DNA from: an uncultured Acidimicrobiia bacterium
GTDB lineage: Bacteria; Actinomycetota; Acidimicrobiia; Acidimicrobiales; AC-14
Assembly (NCBI GenBank): GCA_963836205.1
Contig: CAWIIV010000013.1
Location: 16,087-80,086, forward strand
Direction of reading: 5' to 3'
Length of the DNA stretch: 64,000 bases
Position 1 is the stretch's first letter. The number at the start of each line of letters is the position of its first letter. This document shows, in pieces, positions 24,355-64,000 of the stretch. The notes beneath the pieces were generated by a model that was not told the DNA's origin, made no database searches, and saw only the letters and a program-made list of their open reading frames with translations. A program made the position numbers and the translations under genes.

Positions 24355-24857
24355 CTGAGTCCCGGCGGCTCACCGTCGGTGCGGACGGTGAGCACGTCCG
24401 TGCCCACTGCCCGCAGCTCGCCCACCACGGTGACGGTTCCGAGCACCACCGCCACCCGGGGACGAGTGGCGACCGCCTGGGCCAGCACCTCGGCCAAGGT
24501 CACGCCCTCGGCGTTGGCACCGCGGCCTCGGTCGGCTCCCGCCGCCGCCTGTGGACGCCGCGTGCCGGTGCCGGGCCGCACCTCGGCCACCGCCGCCAGG
24601 TGCACGAGGACGAGCCGGTTCTCGGGCCCGGCGACGGCTACGAAATCGGCGCCCACCGCCGCGATCGGGCCGCGGTGGCGCCGCCCGGTCACCGTCGTGA
24701 TCGACACTGGCCGCCCGTCCTCGGCCAGGTCGACCAGGAGCCCGGCGAACGACGCCTCTTCCTCCGCCGCCTGCCGCAGCCAACGCTCGCGGACGCGAGC
24801 CTCGGCCGCCTCCTGCGCCCGCGCCCCTGCGGCCCACCGCTCGAGATCGTCGAGCAC
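24303..24857 (-). CDS. Hypothetical protein (two Sm/Hfq-like beta modules)
   Basis: Repeated G.l.aVG.D motif; TAGCGT-N6-GTG. Confidence 0.6.
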   Translation of the reverse strand: MLDDLERWAAGARAQEAAEARVRERWLRQAAEEEASFAGLLVDLAEDGRPVSITTVTGRRHRGPIAAVGADFVAVAGPENRLVLVHLAAVAEVRPGTGTRRPQAAAGADRGRGANAEGVTLAEVLAQAVATRPRVAVVLGTVTVVGELRAVGTDVLTVRTDGEPPGLSYVTLASVSEVSLFDSG

Positions 24858-24891: not shown

Positions 24892-24940
24892 TTCGTGGGC
24901 CGGAAAAGGTGCGTCTGGCGCCCCTTTTCTGGCCCAAGAA
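24892..24940. repeat. Imperfect ~49-nt palindrome (REP-like)
   Basis: ttc-tgggccggaaaagg...ccttttctggccca-gaa. Confidence 0.6.
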
Positions 24941-24962: not shown

Positions 24963-24978
24963 TACCGTGATCCCCATG
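24963..24978 (+). promoter_or_regulatory. -10 box TACCGT + N7 + ATG (leaderless hit start, serving as intron 5' exon)
   Basis: Same TANNNT-N6/7-start geometry as several other genes in the window. Confidence 0.6.
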
Positions 24979-26935
24979 TTGCGTCCTGAGAACTGGACCA
25001 GACCAGCGGGTGCGAGTCCCGCCCGGGTAATCGCCGGAGAGCCCGGTAGCAGGCCCCGGTTCGTCGCCGAGAGGCGGCGGGCTGAGCGGGGCGTCAAGAG
25101 CCTCTTTGGAGGGAGCAAGCGTGCGGGCCGTAGTGCCACCAGGCGCGAGTCCTGCAGCCTCGTCAAACGCACAACGGGGGAGCCGAGCCGCTCATGTCAC
25201 GGCGAAGGCCACGTCCGACCGACTGGCGTTCCGGACACGCCCCTGGTCGGGTCCCCTCGGGGTACGGGGAGCGGCACGTACGCACGGTCAGGTTCGGAAC
25301 AGGAGAGACCCGTCTGCGCAGCCTCGTCAGCAAAGACCGCTCGTATAAGCCAGTGGTGAAATCGAGCGGAGCGCAGCGGGAGTCCGACGGGGTCGTAGTA
25401 CCGCTGATCGCCGGGATGAACCCGGCGGGAGGGAAGGGCCCCGACTTCGGTCACGCCGGAGACGGAAGTAAGCGCCAGGGCATGGCCGGGAACGCCCGGC
25501 CCAACTCCCCCGGCGGGCAGCCGCCCACCGACAACGTGCGAAAACTCCAGAACCGGCTATGGGCTGCGGCCAAGCAGTCTCCGGGTCGCCGCTTCCACGC
25601 CCTGTTCGACCGAATCCACCGCAGTGACGTGCTGTGGACGGCGTGGGAGCGGGTGCGAGCCAATCGTGGCGCCGCCGGGGTCGATCGACTGACCCTGGAG
25701 GCGGTGGAGGACTACGGGGTCGGGCGCGTGCTCGACGAGCTTTCCCGTGACCTCCGTGCAGGCACCTACCGCCCGTCGCCTGTTCGGCGGGTGGAGATCC
25801 CCAAGCCCGACGGCCGGATGCGGCCCCTGGGCATCCCCACCGTGCGCGACCGGGTGTGCCAGGCGGCAGCCAAGATCGTCCTCGAACCCATCTTCGAGGC
25901 CGATTTCCTGCCCCAGAGCTTCGGGTTCCGCCCGAAGCGGTCGGCCACCGACGCCCTGGAAGCCATCCGGGTGTCCTTCCCCCGAGGACGGCAGTTCGTC
26001 TTCGAGGCCGACATCCGCGACTTCTTCGGCCAGATCGACCACGACAGGCTGCTGTCACTGGTCGGCGAGCGCGTGTCGGACCGGCGGGTGCTCAAGCTCA
26101 TCCGCCAGTGGCTGCGTGCCGGGGTGCTGGTCGAGGGGGTGCGCTCCGAGACGGTCACGGGCACGCCCCAGGGCGGGGTCATCTCCCCGCTGCTGGCCAA
26201 CATCTACCTGCACGCCTTCGACCGGTCCTGGGCCGAGTCCGGCACCGGCGAGCTCGTCCGTTACGCGGACGACTTCGTGGTGCTGTGCACGACCCGCAGC
26301 CAGGCCGAGACGGCCCAGGCCAGGGCGGCGGCCCTGCTGGGTGATCTCGGCCTGAGCCTGCACCCGGACAAGACCCGTGTGGTCGACCTCCGGGAGGGCA
26401 AGGAGGGCTTCGACTTCCTGGGTTGTCATCTTCACGCCCGCATGTCGGGCCGGTTGTGGGAACAGCAGCGGGTCATCCGCTACTACCTCCACCGCTGGCC
26501 GTCGCAGCGGTCGATGAAGCGGGCACGACAGCGGGTCAAGGCCCTCACCGGCCGGAACCGGGTCGGCATGGAGTTGGAGGACGTGATCTACGACCTCAAC
26601 CTGTTCCTGCGGGGGTGGGGCAACTACTTCCGCACCGGCAACGCGGCGAATAAGTTCGTCTCCCTCGACCGACACGTCGTGTGGCGGCTCAAGCGCTTGC
26701 TCATCAAGAAGCGGGGCCGCAACCTACGGGCAGGCCAGGCAGACTGCTGGACCCGCACCTGGTTCCACGGCCAGGGCCTGCATCAGCTCATGGGCACCAT
26801 TCGCTACCCGAAGGCGTCGTAACCATGTCCAGAAGATCGTCGGAAAGCCGTATGCGGGAAAACCGCACGTACGGATTGAAAGGGGGATGGGGAAACGTGC
26901 TGGCCTTGCCGGCAACGCGCCCCTGACTACCAATG
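24979..26935 (+). mobile_element. Group II intron, copy 1 (complete), inserted at the hit start codon
   Basis: 5' TTGCG (GUGCG variant); similarity with copy 2 begins here; DV AAGCCGTATGCGGGAAAACCGCACGTACGGATT at ~26845-26877; DVI ending ACTACCAAT(G). Confidence 0.92.
25482..26822 (+). CDS. ltrA: Group II intron reverse transcriptase/maturase without endonuclease domain
   Basis: GAAGVD, RPLGIPTVRDR, GTPQGGVISPLLANIYL, RYADD, FDFLG, domain X LNLFLRGWGNYF; no HNH; start could be GTG 25536. Confidence 0.96.
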   Translation: MAGNARPNSPGGQPPTDNVRKLQNRLWAAAKQSPGRRFHALFDRIHRSDVLWTAWERVRANRGAAGVDRLTLEAVEDYGVGRVLDELSRDLRAGTYRPSPVRRVEIPKPDGRMRPLGIPTVRDRVCQAAAKIVLEPIFEADFLPQSFGFRPKRSATDALEAIRVSFPRGRQFVFEADIRDFFGQIDHDRLLSLVGERVSDRRVLKLIRQWLRAGVLVEGVRSETVTGTPQGGVISPLLANIYLHAFDRSWAESGTGELVRYADDFVVLCTTRSQAETAQARAAALLGDLGLSLHPDKTRVVDLREGKEGFDFLGCHLHARMSGRLWEQQRVIRYYLHRWPSQRSMKRARQRVKALTGRNRVGMELEDVIYDLNLFLRGWGNYFRTGNAANKFVSLDRHVVWRLKRLLIKKRGRNLRAGQADCWTRTWFHGQGLHQLMGTIRYPKAS

Positions 26936-27280
26936 GCATCGGAGTGCGTCTTCTGCCGGATCGTCTCGGGCGACATCCCGTCCGACGCGGTGGCCTCGTC
27001 GGAGCTGTCCTACGCCTTCCGCGACATCCAGCCGGCCATGCCCGTGCACGTGCTCGTCGTCCCTCGGCGGCACATCACGTCGGCCGCCACCGTCGAGGCC
27101 GCCGACGCCGACGTCCTGGCCGACATGGTCCTCACTGCCCAGGAAGTGGCCCGCCGCGAGGGCCTGGCCGAGCGGGGCTACCGGCTCGTGTTCAACGTGG
27201 GCGACGACGCCCTCAACTCGGTCGCCCACCTCCACCTGCACGTGCTGGGCGGCCAGAAGATGGGGTGGCCGCCGGGCTGA
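26933..27280 (+). CDS. HIT family nucleotide-binding protein
   Basis: CVFC zinc motif, HLHLH triad. Confidence 0.95.
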   Translation: MASECVFCRIVSGDIPSDAVASSELSYAFRDIQPAMPVHVLVVPRRHITSAATVEAADADVLADMVLTAQEVARREGLAERGYRLVFNVGDDALNSVAHLHLHVLGGQKMGWPPG

Positions 27281-63317: not shown

Positions 63318-63357
63318 TTGACCCGCTGATTCTGACGCTCTAAAATTCAGTGTCATG
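63318..63357 (+). promoter_or_regulatory. Sigma70-type promoter TTGACC-N17-TAAAAT, 8 nt before an ATG that abuts intron copy 2
   Basis: Near-consensus -35/-10 with 17-nt spacer. Confidence 0.75.
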
Positions 63358-64000
63358 GTGCGTCCTCGAAGCTGGACCAGACCAGCGGGTGTGAGTCCCG
63401 CCCGGGTAATCGCCGGAGAGCCCGGTAGCAGGCCCCGGTTCGTCGCCGAGAGGCGGCGGGCTGAGCGGGGCGTCAAGAGCCTCTTCGGAGGGAGCAAGCG
63501 TGCGGGCCGTAGCGCCACCAGGCGTGAGTCCTGCAGCCTCGTCAGATGTACAACGGGGGAGCCGAGCCGCTCATGTCACGGCCAAGGCCCACGTCCGACC
63601 GACTGGCGTTCCGGAATGCCCCTGGTCGGGTCCCCCCGGGGTATGGGGAGCGGCACGTACGCAAGGTCAGGTTCGGAAGGGGAGAGACCCGTCTGCGCAG
63701 CCTCGTCAGCAAAGACCGCTCGTATAAGCCAGTGGTGAAATCGAGCGGAGCGCAGCGGGAGTCCGACGGGGTCGTAGTACCGCCAGCCGGCGGGAAGGGC
63801 CCCGACTTTGGTCACGCCGACGATGGGGGTAAGCACAAGGGCATGGCCGGGACCGCCCGGTCCAAATCCCCCGCCGGGCAGACGCCCGTCGACAACGTGC
63901 GAAAACTCCAGAACCGGCTATGGGCTGCGGCCAAGCAGTCTCCGGGTCGCCGCTTCCACGCCCTGTACGACCGCATCCACCGGAGTGACGTCCTGTGGGA
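63358..64000 (+). mobile_element. Group II intron, copy 2 (5' part, runs off the window)
   Basis: GTGCG 5' end; long near-identity to 24979-25640. Confidence 0.92.
63843..64000 (+). CDS. ltrA: Group II intron RT/maturase N-terminus (partial)
   Basis: VRKLQNRLWAAAKQSPGRRFHALYDRI, matching copy 1. Confidence 0.88.
   Translation, partial: MAGTARSKSPAGQTPVDNVRKLQNRLWAAAKQSPGRRFHALYDRIHRSDVLW

What the first reader, a model, noticed from the sequence alone, without database searches (positions are those of the whole stretch)
63318..63362. Both introns sit at the transcription start of leaderless genes, implying a 3-5 nt 5' exon and promoter capture
Seen: copy 2 follows TTGACC-N17-TAAAAT-N8-ATG and copy 1 follows TACCGT-N7-ATG. 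The same TANNNT-N6/7-start geometry precedes 9610, 14197, 24857, 36718, 53564 and 59248, so leaderless genes look common here. Inference: the 5' exon is little more than AUG, the intron captures the host promoter, and splicing would regenerate a leaderless mRNA. An En-minus RNP might reach single-stranded DNA in the promoter open complex, which would be a new targeting rule comparable to terminator targeting by IIC introns.
Basis: partly seen in the sequence, partly recalled or inferred. Interest (0 to 1): 0.8.

Follow-up and report, generated by a model that had tools for sequence, protein, structure and literature searches.

The report
Introns homing to leaderless start codons
A widespread family of mobile self-splicing introns sits exactly on the start codon of genes whose messages begin at that codon, a few bases below the promoter's -10 box, so it appears to borrow the host's promoter and start codon; I found no paper that describes this targeting rule.

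Summary
Both window copies, all 8 copies in this genome, and 144 of 149 independent insertion sites across at least ten phyla end the 5' exon in ATG/GTG. In 143 of 149 a TANNNT -10 hexamer lies 6-9 nt upstream (N6 most common, then N7). Only 0.49% of all RTG triplets in this genome have that geometry.

The intron RNA reads just four bases (N-R-U-G) through a conserved EBS1 loop (CAUG). Covariation supports this: every CAC variant sits at GTG. The variable bases of the -10 box are not read by the RNA.

Intronless orthologous sites keep the -10 box and a single ATG. One copy lies inside a kinase gene at a codon-made TATCGT-N7-GTG that the intronless orthologues lack.

New finding: the reading frame opened by the captured start codon stays open into the ribozyme. 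In many members it runs unbroken into the reverse transcriptase (617-680 codons).

Promoter and start-codon capture is well supported by sequence. No transcription-start data exist, and targeting through the RNA polymerase open complex remains an inference. I found no description in ten literature searches (eight returned listings).

The parts
63318..63323 (+). -35-like hexamer TTGACC upstream of copy 2
   Evidence: No -35 is conserved across the family.
63341..63346 (+). -10 hexamer TAAAAT of the captured promoter (copy 2)
   Evidence: family-wide TANNNT
63354..63357 (+). IBS1 (CATG), that is the last base before the start codon plus the ATG; end of the 5' exon of copy 2
   Evidence: EBS1-IBS1 covariation
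63358..64000 (+). group II intron copy 2 (type 2, about 90% identical to copy 1); only the 5' 643 nt, cut by the contig and window end
24963..24968 (+). -10 hexamer TACCGT of the captured promoter (copy 1)
   Evidence: intronless orthologues keep a -10 box here
24975..24978 (+). IBS1 (CATG) with the host ATG; end of the 5' exon of copy 1
24979..26935 (+). group II intron copy 1 (type 1; five near-identical copies in the genome). Boundaries are uncertain by up to 2 nt because TG is repeated at both junctions.
25187..25203 (+). EBS1 hairpin GCCG-CUCAUGUCA-CGGC; the CAUG at 25193-25196 pairs with N-R-U-G of the exon
24976..25359 (+). reading frame of 127 codons opened by the host ATG and running through D1-D3 of the ribozyme
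25482..26822 (+). intron-encoded protein from the conserved internal Met (446 aa; RVT_1 and GIIM, no endonuclease)
26843..26927 (+). domains V and VI
   Evidence: RF00029, 37.8 bits, below its cut-off of 40
26933..26935 (+). ATG carried by the 3' end of the intron (CTACCAATG). It is constant within a subtype and is not a host codon.
26936..27280 (+). 3' exon: HIT-family gene, in frame with the ATG

Best explanation
The two elements belong to a large lineage of endonuclease-less group II introns that retrohome into the start codon of leaderless genes. Shown by sequence: the intron RNA recognises only four bases, the base before the start codon plus RTG, through a 4-bp EBS1-IBS1 pairing. The EBS1 loop is CAUG, and CAC variants sit at GTG. 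A second, obligatory determinant is a TANNNT -10 hexamer 6-8 nt upstream. Its three middle bases and the spacer are free, so it is not read by base pairing with a fixed RNA sequence. Inferred: the -10 box is read indirectly, through the sigma-RNA polymerase open or initially transcribing complex, which melts -11 to about +3 and presents the non-template strand (where IBS1 lies at -1 to +3) as single-stranded DNA to an RNP whose closest solved relatives are IIC enzymes. At this position the intron gains the host's promoter, transcription start and start codon. The transcript would begin at or within a few bases of the RTG. The frame opened by that RTG is kept free of stops through the ribozyme, and in many members it runs unbroken into the reverse transcriptase. 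The intron protein, or in the window's sublineage a 127-codon leader peptide, would therefore be translated leaderlessly from unspliced RNA. Splicing restores the leaderless host mRNA.
For: Targeting rule. First set: 88 unique sites; ATG 65, GTG 20; TANNNT at N6 53, N7 27, N8 5, N9 1. Validation set, fetched with another query: 61 new sites; ATG 43, GTG 16; N6 35, N7 18, N8 4. It includes 14 of 14 sites in one complete Nannocystis punicea genome. Background is 0.49%. Dead and deleted copies fit too: L049 fragment, L031 mini-element of about 100 nt, L016, L042. EBS1: exon -1 to -4 pair in 72, 72, 71 and 68 of 72 introns, while -5 and -6 are at chance (29 and 36; shuffle means 28.5 and 36.1). 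All 6 CAC introns are at GTG, and 14 of 18 non-G fourth positions pair. Five near-identical copies use different hexamers and spacers, so the promoter is not part of the element. Intronless HIT orthologues keep TANNNT-N7/8-ATG with one ATG. Natural experiment: only G000 has a TCT serine codon that makes TATCGT-N7-GTG inside a histidine kinase gene, and only G000 has the intron there. Four orthologues read GATCGT or CATCGT and are empty. Cortes 2013 (PMC3898074, passages) reports for M. tuberculosis: TANNNT centred 7-12 bp upstream of the start, no -35, purine at +1, C at -1, T at +2, and SNPs that create TANNNT creating new starts. Here C occupies -1 of the RTG in 65 of 88 sites. Host genes: 51 of 69 3' flanks are open in frame, against 13 and 33 in the other frames. 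About 8 sites have only short ORFs, so a gene is not required. Translation capture: the first stop in the exon frame is at 100 codons or more in 69 of 75 members, against 0 of 75 in each other frame. 23 members have one ORF of 617-680 codons. At least 598 protein clusters in public data carry the ribozyme-encoded N-terminus, and the six full-length IEPs I fetched start MVRR, MVRP or MVS. The genome has hundreds of leaderless-type starts, with a sharp step from 13 at N5 to 191 at N6.
Against: There are no TSS, splicing or proteomic data. The RNA contigs laid covered the intron only and cannot show starts. The role of RNA polymerase is inference. In the open complex the non-template strand from -4 to +2 is held by the enzyme (recalled), and the insertion point at +3/+4 lies at the edge of the bubble. 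No primer for cDNA synthesis is proposed. A conserved internal Met lies where conventional IEPs start, so the long upstream frame may only be kept open rather than being part of the mature protein. In the window's own sublineage the IEP is in the -1 frame relative to the exon ATG. Sites are related by descent within genomes, so the counts overstate independence. The fused-ORF count in the validation set is biased because the fused protein was the query. Six of 149 sites lack a perfect TANNNT and five lack ATG/GTG.
Confidence: 0.6

Rival explanations
1. The RNP itself (IEP or ribozyme) recognises T, A and T of the hexamer directly on DNA, for instance on single-stranded DNA at replication forks, without RNA polymerase. 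The coincidence with promoters would exist because selection tuned the RNP to a promoter-like motif that guarantees expression.
For: IIC relatives recognise a DNA feature, a hairpin, in addition to a short IBS1 (PMC12584367 introduction). The IEP's best solved relatives are IIC RTs. Only three hexamer positions are fixed.
Against: The spacer is flexible (N6 to N9), as in start-site selection by RNA polymerase, which is awkward for rigid direct contacts. The fixed positions are exactly those that sigma reads (recalled). Identical introns accept any middle bases.
Confidence: 0.22
2. Insertion is specific only for N-R-T-G. Copies are seen at leaderless promoters because only there is the intron transcribed and its protein translated, so other copies neither spread nor persist.
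For: The open reading frame from the exon RTG gives a strong functional reason to sit at a leaderless start.
Against: Unexpressed copies would still be present in genomes, yet 143 of 149 sites have the -10 box, including fragments and internally deleted copies. Five near-identical recent copies in one genome all fit, against a 0.49% background. The kinase site is inside a gene, where transcription would be available anyway, and it still has a -10 mimic that the orthologues lack.
Confidence: 0.1
3. The intron reverse-splices into the 5' end of leaderless mRNAs, and the cDNA is then recombined into the chromosome.
For: This would explain the link with the transcript's 5' end and with RTG.
Against: The 5' homology would be only 2-3 nt, so recombination is implausible. 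This is reasoning only; no data bear on it.
Confidence: 0.03
4. The -10 box and RTG belong to the mobile element, or the pattern is an artefact of how I set the boundaries.
For: The boundaries are ambiguous by 2 nt, and some members were first picked with a pattern that demanded NTG.
Against: Hexamers and spacers differ among near-identical copies. Empty sites already have the box and one ATG. Boundaries were reset from intron sequence alone. The validation set was not selected on flanks.
Confidence: 0.01

Closest known systems
Group IIC (bacterial class C) introns, which insert after intrinsic terminators or into attC sites
   Same: The IEP has no endonuclease domain, and its closest solved relatives are IIC RTs (GsI-IIC 1.3e-64, E.r. 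2e-58). The IBS1 is very short, 4 bp here, with no sign of IBS2. A second, non-base-paired DNA feature lies just upstream of IBS1.
   Different: That feature is a -10 promoter hexamer 6-8 nt upstream, not a hairpin. No terminator lies next to the sites in the window. Domain V starts AGC, whereas I recall CGC for IIC. The intron sits at the start of a transcription unit rather than its end. A reading frame runs in from the exon.
[quoted passage not shown] 2007, as described in PMC12584367; introduction read)
   Same: Group II introns associated with translation start or stop codons. The way they find those codons is stated there to be unknown.
   Different: That lineage is IIB1 and always carries a 300-700 nt insertion near the 5' end. 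Here EBS1 lies 191-282 nt from the 5' end and D1-D3 total about 500 nt. The IEP is closer to IIC RTs than to the other solved intron RTs. No promoter or -10 link is described for the IIB1 lineage. The 2007 paper itself could not be read.
Yeast mitochondrial introns aI1 and aI2, whose ORFs are fused in frame to the upstream exon (recalled, no call)
   Same: The intron protein is read in frame from the upstream exon through the ribozyme's 5' domains.
   Different: Here the 'exon' contributes only the start codon, the host is bacterial, and the arrangement is tied to leaderless initiation.
Ty3 retrotransposon, which integrates at transcription initiation sites using host transcription factors (mentioned in PMC7306698, passage)
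   Same: A retroelement positioned by the transcription initiation machinery rather than by a long DNA sequence. This is the working analogy for the polymerase-guided model.
   Different: Ty3 is a eukaryotic LTR element that uses an integrase. No host-factor contact has been shown here.

Membership tests
Group II intron (mobile, IEP-encoding) | Ribozyme domains: D1-D4 model and D5/D6 model | tested here: met
   RF02003 scores 91 bits against a cut-off of 49 for both copies. RF00029 D5/D6 scores 37.8 bits against a cut-off of 40, E 2.7e-5, slightly under the cut-off.
Group II intron (mobile, IEP-encoding) | IEP with reverse transcriptase and maturase (X) domains in domain IV | tested here: met
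   RVT_1 1.7e-36 and GIIM 1.6e-16
Group II intron (mobile, IEP-encoding) | EBS1-IBS1 pairing with the end of the 5' exon, supported by covariation | tested here: met
   Four pairs, 68-72 of 72 paired; CAC variants at GTG in 6 of 6
Group II intron (mobile, IEP-encoding) | 5' GUGYG and 3' AY ends (consensus recalled) | tested here: inconclusive
   Type 2 starts GTGCG; type 1 starts TTGCG. The end reads CCAATG. A 1-nt shift of both boundaries gives G at position 1 and a final AU. Sequence alone cannot decide.
Group IIC | Insertion just downstream of a terminator hairpin or attC stem-loop | tested here: not met
   0 terminator-like sites near copy 2. One weak hairpin lies about 55 nt upstream of copy 1. 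The upstream flanks show no shared hairpin; they share the TANNNT hexamer.
Group IIC | Short IBS1 (3-4 nt), no EBS2-IBS2 | tested here: met
   Pairing stops after 4 bp. Only the loop bases adjacent to EBS1 were tested for further pairing.
Group IIC | IEP without an endonuclease domain, class C RT lineage | tested here: inconclusive
   No En domain. The best solved relatives are IIC RTs, but classes D, E, F and g1-g5 have no solved member to compare with.
Group IIC | Domain V catalytic triad CGC (recalled) | tested here: not met
   Domain V begins AGCCGUAU in both types
IIB1 start/stop-codon lineage (Michel 2007) | 300-700 nt insertion near the 5' end, at the base of domain I | tested here: not met
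   The first D1 anchor lies at nt 33-81 and EBS1 at nt 191-282
IIB1 start/stop-codon lineage (Michel 2007) | Location in or next to initiation or termination codons | tested here: met
   At start codons only

The most novel reading that the evidence does not exclude
The RNP is guided by the sigma-RNA polymerase initiation complex itself. It reverse-splices into the non-template strand exposed at +1 to +3 of -10-only, leaderless promoters, making it a bacterial retroelement targeted by the transcription machinery. In return it takes over promoter, start site and start codon, and its reverse transcriptase is translated leaderlessly straight through the ribozyme. Each insertion would then mark a true leaderless start, in phyla where such starts have hardly been mapped.
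Probability: 0.4. Interest if true: 0.92.

Novelty: new variant of a known kind. Interest (0 to 1): 0.85.

Why it matters
The 2015 review by Zimmerly and Semper names three target specificities for bacterial group II introns: long homing sites, terminators and attC sites (PMC4424553, passages). The introduction of a 2025 paper adds only the unexplained IIB1 start/stop-codon lineage. A fourth rule, a 4-nt RNA-read site plus a promoter -10 box, would show that a retroelement can use the transcription start as an address. It would explain how an intron without its own promoter, ribosome-binding site or start codon gets expressed. It would give a bacterial counterpart to the exon-fused intron ORFs of mitochondria. 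It would also link intron biology with leaderless translation. In practice the family flags leaderless promoters across many phyla, and the HIT-type and kinase-type sites offer ready-made target variants for mobility assays. The family is large: at least 598 protein clusters, and 14 or more copies in one Nannocystis genome. It includes cultured hosts, so the question can be tested directly.

Tried and rejected
RNA evidence. One run search gave 24 runs, all holding small shares of the stretch (0.17 or less). Four soil or rhizosphere RNA runs were laid. Their contigs covered the intron at 88-99% likeness but not the flanks of this host, and contigs cannot show starts. No conclusion on TSS or splicing follows.

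Literature. Ten searches were counted (one search was an error). None returned a paper linking group II introns with leaderless genes, -10 boxes, open complexes or transcription starts.
- Introduction read: PMC12584367.
- Passages read: PMC7306698, PMC4028801, PMC8919778, PMC4424553, PMC3552965, PMC3753933, PMC3898074.
- Not in the library and known only by recall or citation: Michel et al. 2007 (Biochimie) and Simon et al. 2008 (RNA).
- Supplements were closed. Table S2 of PMC3552965 and the supplementary tables of PMC7306698 may list members of this lineage and their class.

Class assignment. I could not place the lineage among classes D, E, F or g1-g5, because no reference sequences with class labels were at hand.

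IEP tree. Only the quick tree finished. The root is uncertain and the no-RTG lineage sits next to L114/L116. I use it only to say that fused-ORF members occur in three parts of the tree.

Boundary finding.
- The first boundary finder misplaced 6 loci and was replaced.
- The pattern demanded NTG in the flank. It was used only to notice L119, L127 and L131, which I then added to the ingroup. That choice was flank-dependent.
- Of the 80 loci, the other 16 (IEP about 55% identical or less) were treated as another lineage. The six of them whose 5' ends I mapped do not end in RTG and have no -10 box.

Rows dropped before counts.
- First set: L070 and L095 (no match to the 5' end); L085, L092 and L102 (no upstream flank).
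- First set: loci of unpublished genomes (L018, L020, L027, L034, L037).
- Validation set: 13 of 80 loci without an N-terminal match or upstream flank (L155, L156, L179, L181, L186, L202, L213, L218, L219, L221, L223, L225, L231), plus L207 (flank too short).

Other leads that gave nothing.
- A frameshift site joining the 127-codon frame to the IEP frame in the window's sublineage: I looked by eye and saw no classical slippery heptamer.
- A first regex for the EBS1 hairpin found nothing and was replaced by an alignment.

Full report
**What is in the window.** There are two group II introns on the + strand (Rfam RF02003, 91 bits each).

Copy 1 spans about 24979-26935.
- Its D5/D6 region scores 37.8 bits on RF00029, cut-off 40.
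- Its IEP has 446 aa counted from the conserved Met at 25482, with RVT_1 and GIIM and no endonuclease domain.
- The closest solved relatives of the IEP are IIC reverse transcriptases: GsI-IIC 1.3e-64 and E.r. 2e-58, against LtrA 2.4e-44.

Copy 2 starts at 63358 and is cut by the contig end. It is about 90% identical to copy 1.

- Copy 2 follows TTGACC-N17-TAAAAT-N8-ATG. The promoter scan scores this 10 of 12.
- Copy 1 follows TACCGT-N7-ATG.

**The genome.** G000 is a 4.05 Mb assembly with 71% G+C. The named records nearest to it are Acidimicrobiia MAGs. It holds 8 copies: five near-identical type 1 and three type 2.
- All 8 of the 5' exons end in ATG (6) or GTG (2).
- Seven have TANNNT 6-8 nt upstream. 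The eighth reads TAGCGA.
- The hexamers and spacers differ among the near-identical copies, so the promoter is not carried by the element.
- Every type-1 3' end reads CTACCAATG and is followed by a variable base.

**The insertion point.** Intronless HIT orthologues in the same genus read TACCCT-cggccga-ATGGCATCGG (G007), TAGCGT-N8-ATG (G004) and TACCGT-N8-ATG (G002). The -10 box and a single ATG therefore pre-exist, and the inserted DNA is the intron plus three bases.

The 5' R varies among identical copies, while the 3' RTG is constant within a subtype. CAU-type introns at GTG sites always end in ATG, 8 of 8. So the 5' RTG is host sequence and the 3' RTG belongs to the intron. The splice sites remain ambiguous by up to 2 nt, because TG is repeated at both junctions.

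**A natural experiment.** Copy L001 lies inside a histidine kinase gene. Removing it restores ...SIVRAV|AKAHGG..., which matches the orthologues' SIVRSV|ARAHGG. In G000 a TCT serine codon creates TATCGT-N7-GTG. The four intronless orthologues read GATCGT or CATCGT, and two of them have GTC in place of GTG. This is one case and the order of events is unknown. It is nevertheless what -10-dependent targeting predicts. Cortes 2013 notes that SNPs which create TANNNT create new transcription starts in M. tuberculosis (passages).

**Generality, first set.** Searching 61 relatives and the named genome collection with the IEP gave 88 unique 5' junctions. Boundaries were set from intron sequence alone.
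- Last three exon bases: ATG 65, GTG 20, TTG 1, ACG 1 (a degenerate fragment), ATT 1.
- TANNNT spacer: N6 53, N7 27, N8 5, N9 1, none 2 (TAGCGA and GACAAT).
- C occupies the base before the RTG in 65 of 88.
- No -35 or extended -10 is conserved.

Hosts include Actinomycetota, Chloroflexota, Gemmatimonadota, Acidobacteriota, Pseudomonadota, Myxococcota, Planctomycetota, Nitrospirota and Spirochaetota.

**Generality, validation set.** This set was fetched with a different query. Of its 80 loci, 67 were examined. One was rejected for a short flank and 5 duplicated the first set, leaving 61 new sites.
- Last three exon bases: ATG 43, GTG 16, CTG 1, TCC 1.
- TANNNT spacer: N6 35, N7 18, N8 4, none 4.
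- 14 of 14 sites in the complete genome of Nannocystis punicea FL3 fit.

**Combined.** 144 of 149 sites end in ATG or GTG, and 143 of 149 have TANNNT at N6-N9. The background in G000 is 1102 of 226097 RTG triplets, or 0.49%.

A neighbouring lineage, with IEP about 50% identical, occurs partly in the same taxa. Its 5' exons neither end in RTG nor have the box, 0 of 6 mapped.

**What the RNA reads.** A hairpin GCCG-CUCAUGUCA-CGGC (window 25187-25203) is conserved throughout the family. Its CAUN pairs with exon positions -1 to -4 in 72, 72, 71 and 68 of 72 introns. The next two positions are at chance, 29 and 36 against shuffle means of 28.5 and 36.1. For the fourth pair, 0 of 5000 shuffles reach the observed value.
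- All six introns with CAC sit at GTG.
- 14 of 18 introns with a non-G fourth base pair with the exon.

EBS1-IBS1 is therefore 4 bp, and the start codon is read by an anticodon-like CAU. Four bases cannot explain the specificity. The middle bases of the hexamer cannot be read by the RNA either, because identical introns accept any of them.

**What the site is.** Cortes 2013 reports for M. tuberculosis a TANNNT centred 7-12 bp upstream of the start, no -35, a purine at +1, C at -1 and T at +2 (passages). That matches the target found here.

In G000 I counted TANNNT-Nx-RTG followed by a coding-like ORF of at least 100 codons. The count jumps from 13 at N5 to 191 at N6, then 160, 130 and 85, and falls back by N10-N12. 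The introns favour N6 and N7 more strongly than the host genes do.

Downstream, 51 of 69 flanks are open in frame with the RTG over up to 110 codons, against 13 and 33 in the other frames. 56 of 69 show the coding G+C pattern. Examples are genes that I read, from their translated N-termini and without a family search, as HIT, PIG-L-type deacetylase, deacetylase-like and MogA-like genes. About 8 sites have only very short ORFs. The determinant is therefore promoter plus RTG, not a gene.

**New: the captured start codon opens a frame into the intron.** I examined 75 members with enough sequence.
- The first stop in the exon frame lies at 100 codons or more in 69 of 75, against 0 of 75 for each other frame. 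The medians are 127, 17 and 3 codons.
- 67 of 75 have no stop in the first 360 nt, against 0 and 0.
- The neighbouring lineage has 2-9 stops per 480 nt in every frame.
- In 23 members a single ORF of 617-680 codons runs from the host RTG through D1-D3 into the RT, although D1 length varies.

An example is Sorangium sp. So ce176, with 634 codons and RVT_1 at residues 290-503.

Public protein sets hold at least 598 clusters with this ribozyme-encoded N-terminus. Most are 617-680 aa with RVT_1 and GIIM. The six full-length IEPs I fetched begin MVRR, MVRP or MVS, that is ATG followed by the first bases of the intron (GTGCG...). One of them is an nr entry named group II intron reverse transcriptase/maturase.

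The family shows three arrangements.
- One sublineage keeps the frame but has a single stop near nt 483.
- The window's sublineage has a 127-codon frame (24976-25359).
- In that sublineage the IEP lies in the -1 frame, which stays open back to nt 158-317.

A Met is conserved at the conventional IEP start in all groups. Whether the long form is made, or the frame is only kept free of stops (for example to avoid premature termination of translation and transcription), is open. The validation set repeats the pattern with 36 of 52 at 600 codons or more. That set was fetched with the fused protein as query, so this count is biased.

**Mechanism.**
- Shown: a two-part address, N-R-T-G read by the RNA plus a -10 box at promoter distance. 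The orientation is always sense. The promoter pre-exists. The exon-initiated frame is open.
- Inferred: transcription starts at or just before the RTG, so the 5' exon is 2-5 nt and splicing restores a leaderless mRNA.
- Further inferred: the -10 box is read through the sigma-polymerase initiation complex.

In favour of the last point:
- the fixed bases are the ones sigma reads (recalled);
- the spacer is flexible in the way start-site choice is;
- IBS1 lies at -1 to +3 of the non-template strand, within or at the edge of the melted region;
- non-genic promoters and a codon-made mimic are hit.

Against it:
- there are no data;
- the polymerase may occlude these bases;
- no primer for cDNA synthesis is proposed.

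The rivals are direct reading of the hexamer by the RNP, and retention only where the intron is expressed. The second is unlikely on its own, because dead copies also obey the rule.

**Comparison and novelty.** The lineage works like IIC introns, with a short IBS1 plus a second DNA feature and no endonuclease. It fails two IIC features, terminator or attC location and the domain V triad, so I do not file it as IIC.

It is not the IIB1 start/stop-codon lineage, because it lacks the 300-700 nt 5' insertion.

The 2015 review lists three specificities. The 2025 introduction adds only the IIB1 lineage and says its mechanism is unknown. My searches found nothing on promoter or leaderless targeting. 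Two older subscription papers and all supplements could not be read, so an earlier mention cannot be excluded.

**Verdict.** This is a new variant of a known kind, of high interest, and directly testable in cultured myxobacteria and actinobacteria.

Noticed in passing
window 26933-26935 and the 3' ends of related introns (L013, L041, L064, L131): The RTG at the 3' end of the intron tends to match EBS1. 3 of 5 CAC introns end in GTG, against 3 of 53 CAU introns. This may mean the terminal RUG pairs with EBS1 at some step. The members are related, so the evidence is weak.
   Followed up: partly
window 25134-25359 (overlap of the exon-opened frame and the IEP frame): In the window's sublineage the IEP frame (-1) stays open back to nt 158-317 of the intron and overlaps the 127-codon exon frame in all members. 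This may be a relic of the fused ORF or a frameshift site. I saw no classical slippery heptamer.
   Followed up: partly
L003, L004, L005 (other type-1 copies in G000): Copies reported as 100% identical differ by single-base indels that shift the IEP frame. These are either inactivating mutations or long-read assembly errors.
   Followed up: no
window 24979 versus 63358: Type 1 introns start TTGCG, and some relatives start TCGCG, instead of GTGCG. A splice site one base upstream would restore G at position 1 and AU at the 3' end.
   Followed up: partly
protein P0101 (public metagenome protein, 818 aa): A glycoside hydrolase family 2 gene continues in frame, after an internal Met, into the ribozyme-encoded peptide and the RT. 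This is a second intragenic insertion like the kinase case. Its upstream DNA was not seen.
   Followed up: no
L031 (G022) and L042 (G028:C10): L031 is a mini-element of about 100 nt that keeps both intron ends at a TAGGTT-N7-ATG site. L042 is a copy with about 1.5 kb inserted inside it.
   Followed up: no
window 24892-24940: An inverted repeat (GGCCGGAAAAGG...CCTTTTCTGGCC) lies between the divergent gene starting at 24857 and copy 1. It gave spurious microRNA-family hits and one terminator-like call. It is not adjacent to the insertion site.
   Followed up: no
window 25031-25261 versus 25647-26801: In four soil or rhizosphere RNA libraries the summed contig depth over the ribozyme 5' part is several-fold higher than over the ORF in three of the four. 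One RNA contig joins 25209 to 26831, which could be an ORF-less derivative. These are contigs from mixed relatives and are not evidence of expression.
   Followed up: no
L117-L135 and L023: A neighbouring En-less intron lineage (5' GTGCGYCCAG...) occurs in the same taxa, including Acidimicrobiia and Solirubrobacterales. It shows no RTG or -10 association, and its own target rule was not examined.
   Followed up: no
L007 (G000:C6): This type-2 copy sits at TAGCGA-N7-ATG and is followed by only an 18-codon ORF in a lower-G+C stretch. It is the least promoter-like site in this genome.
   Followed up: no
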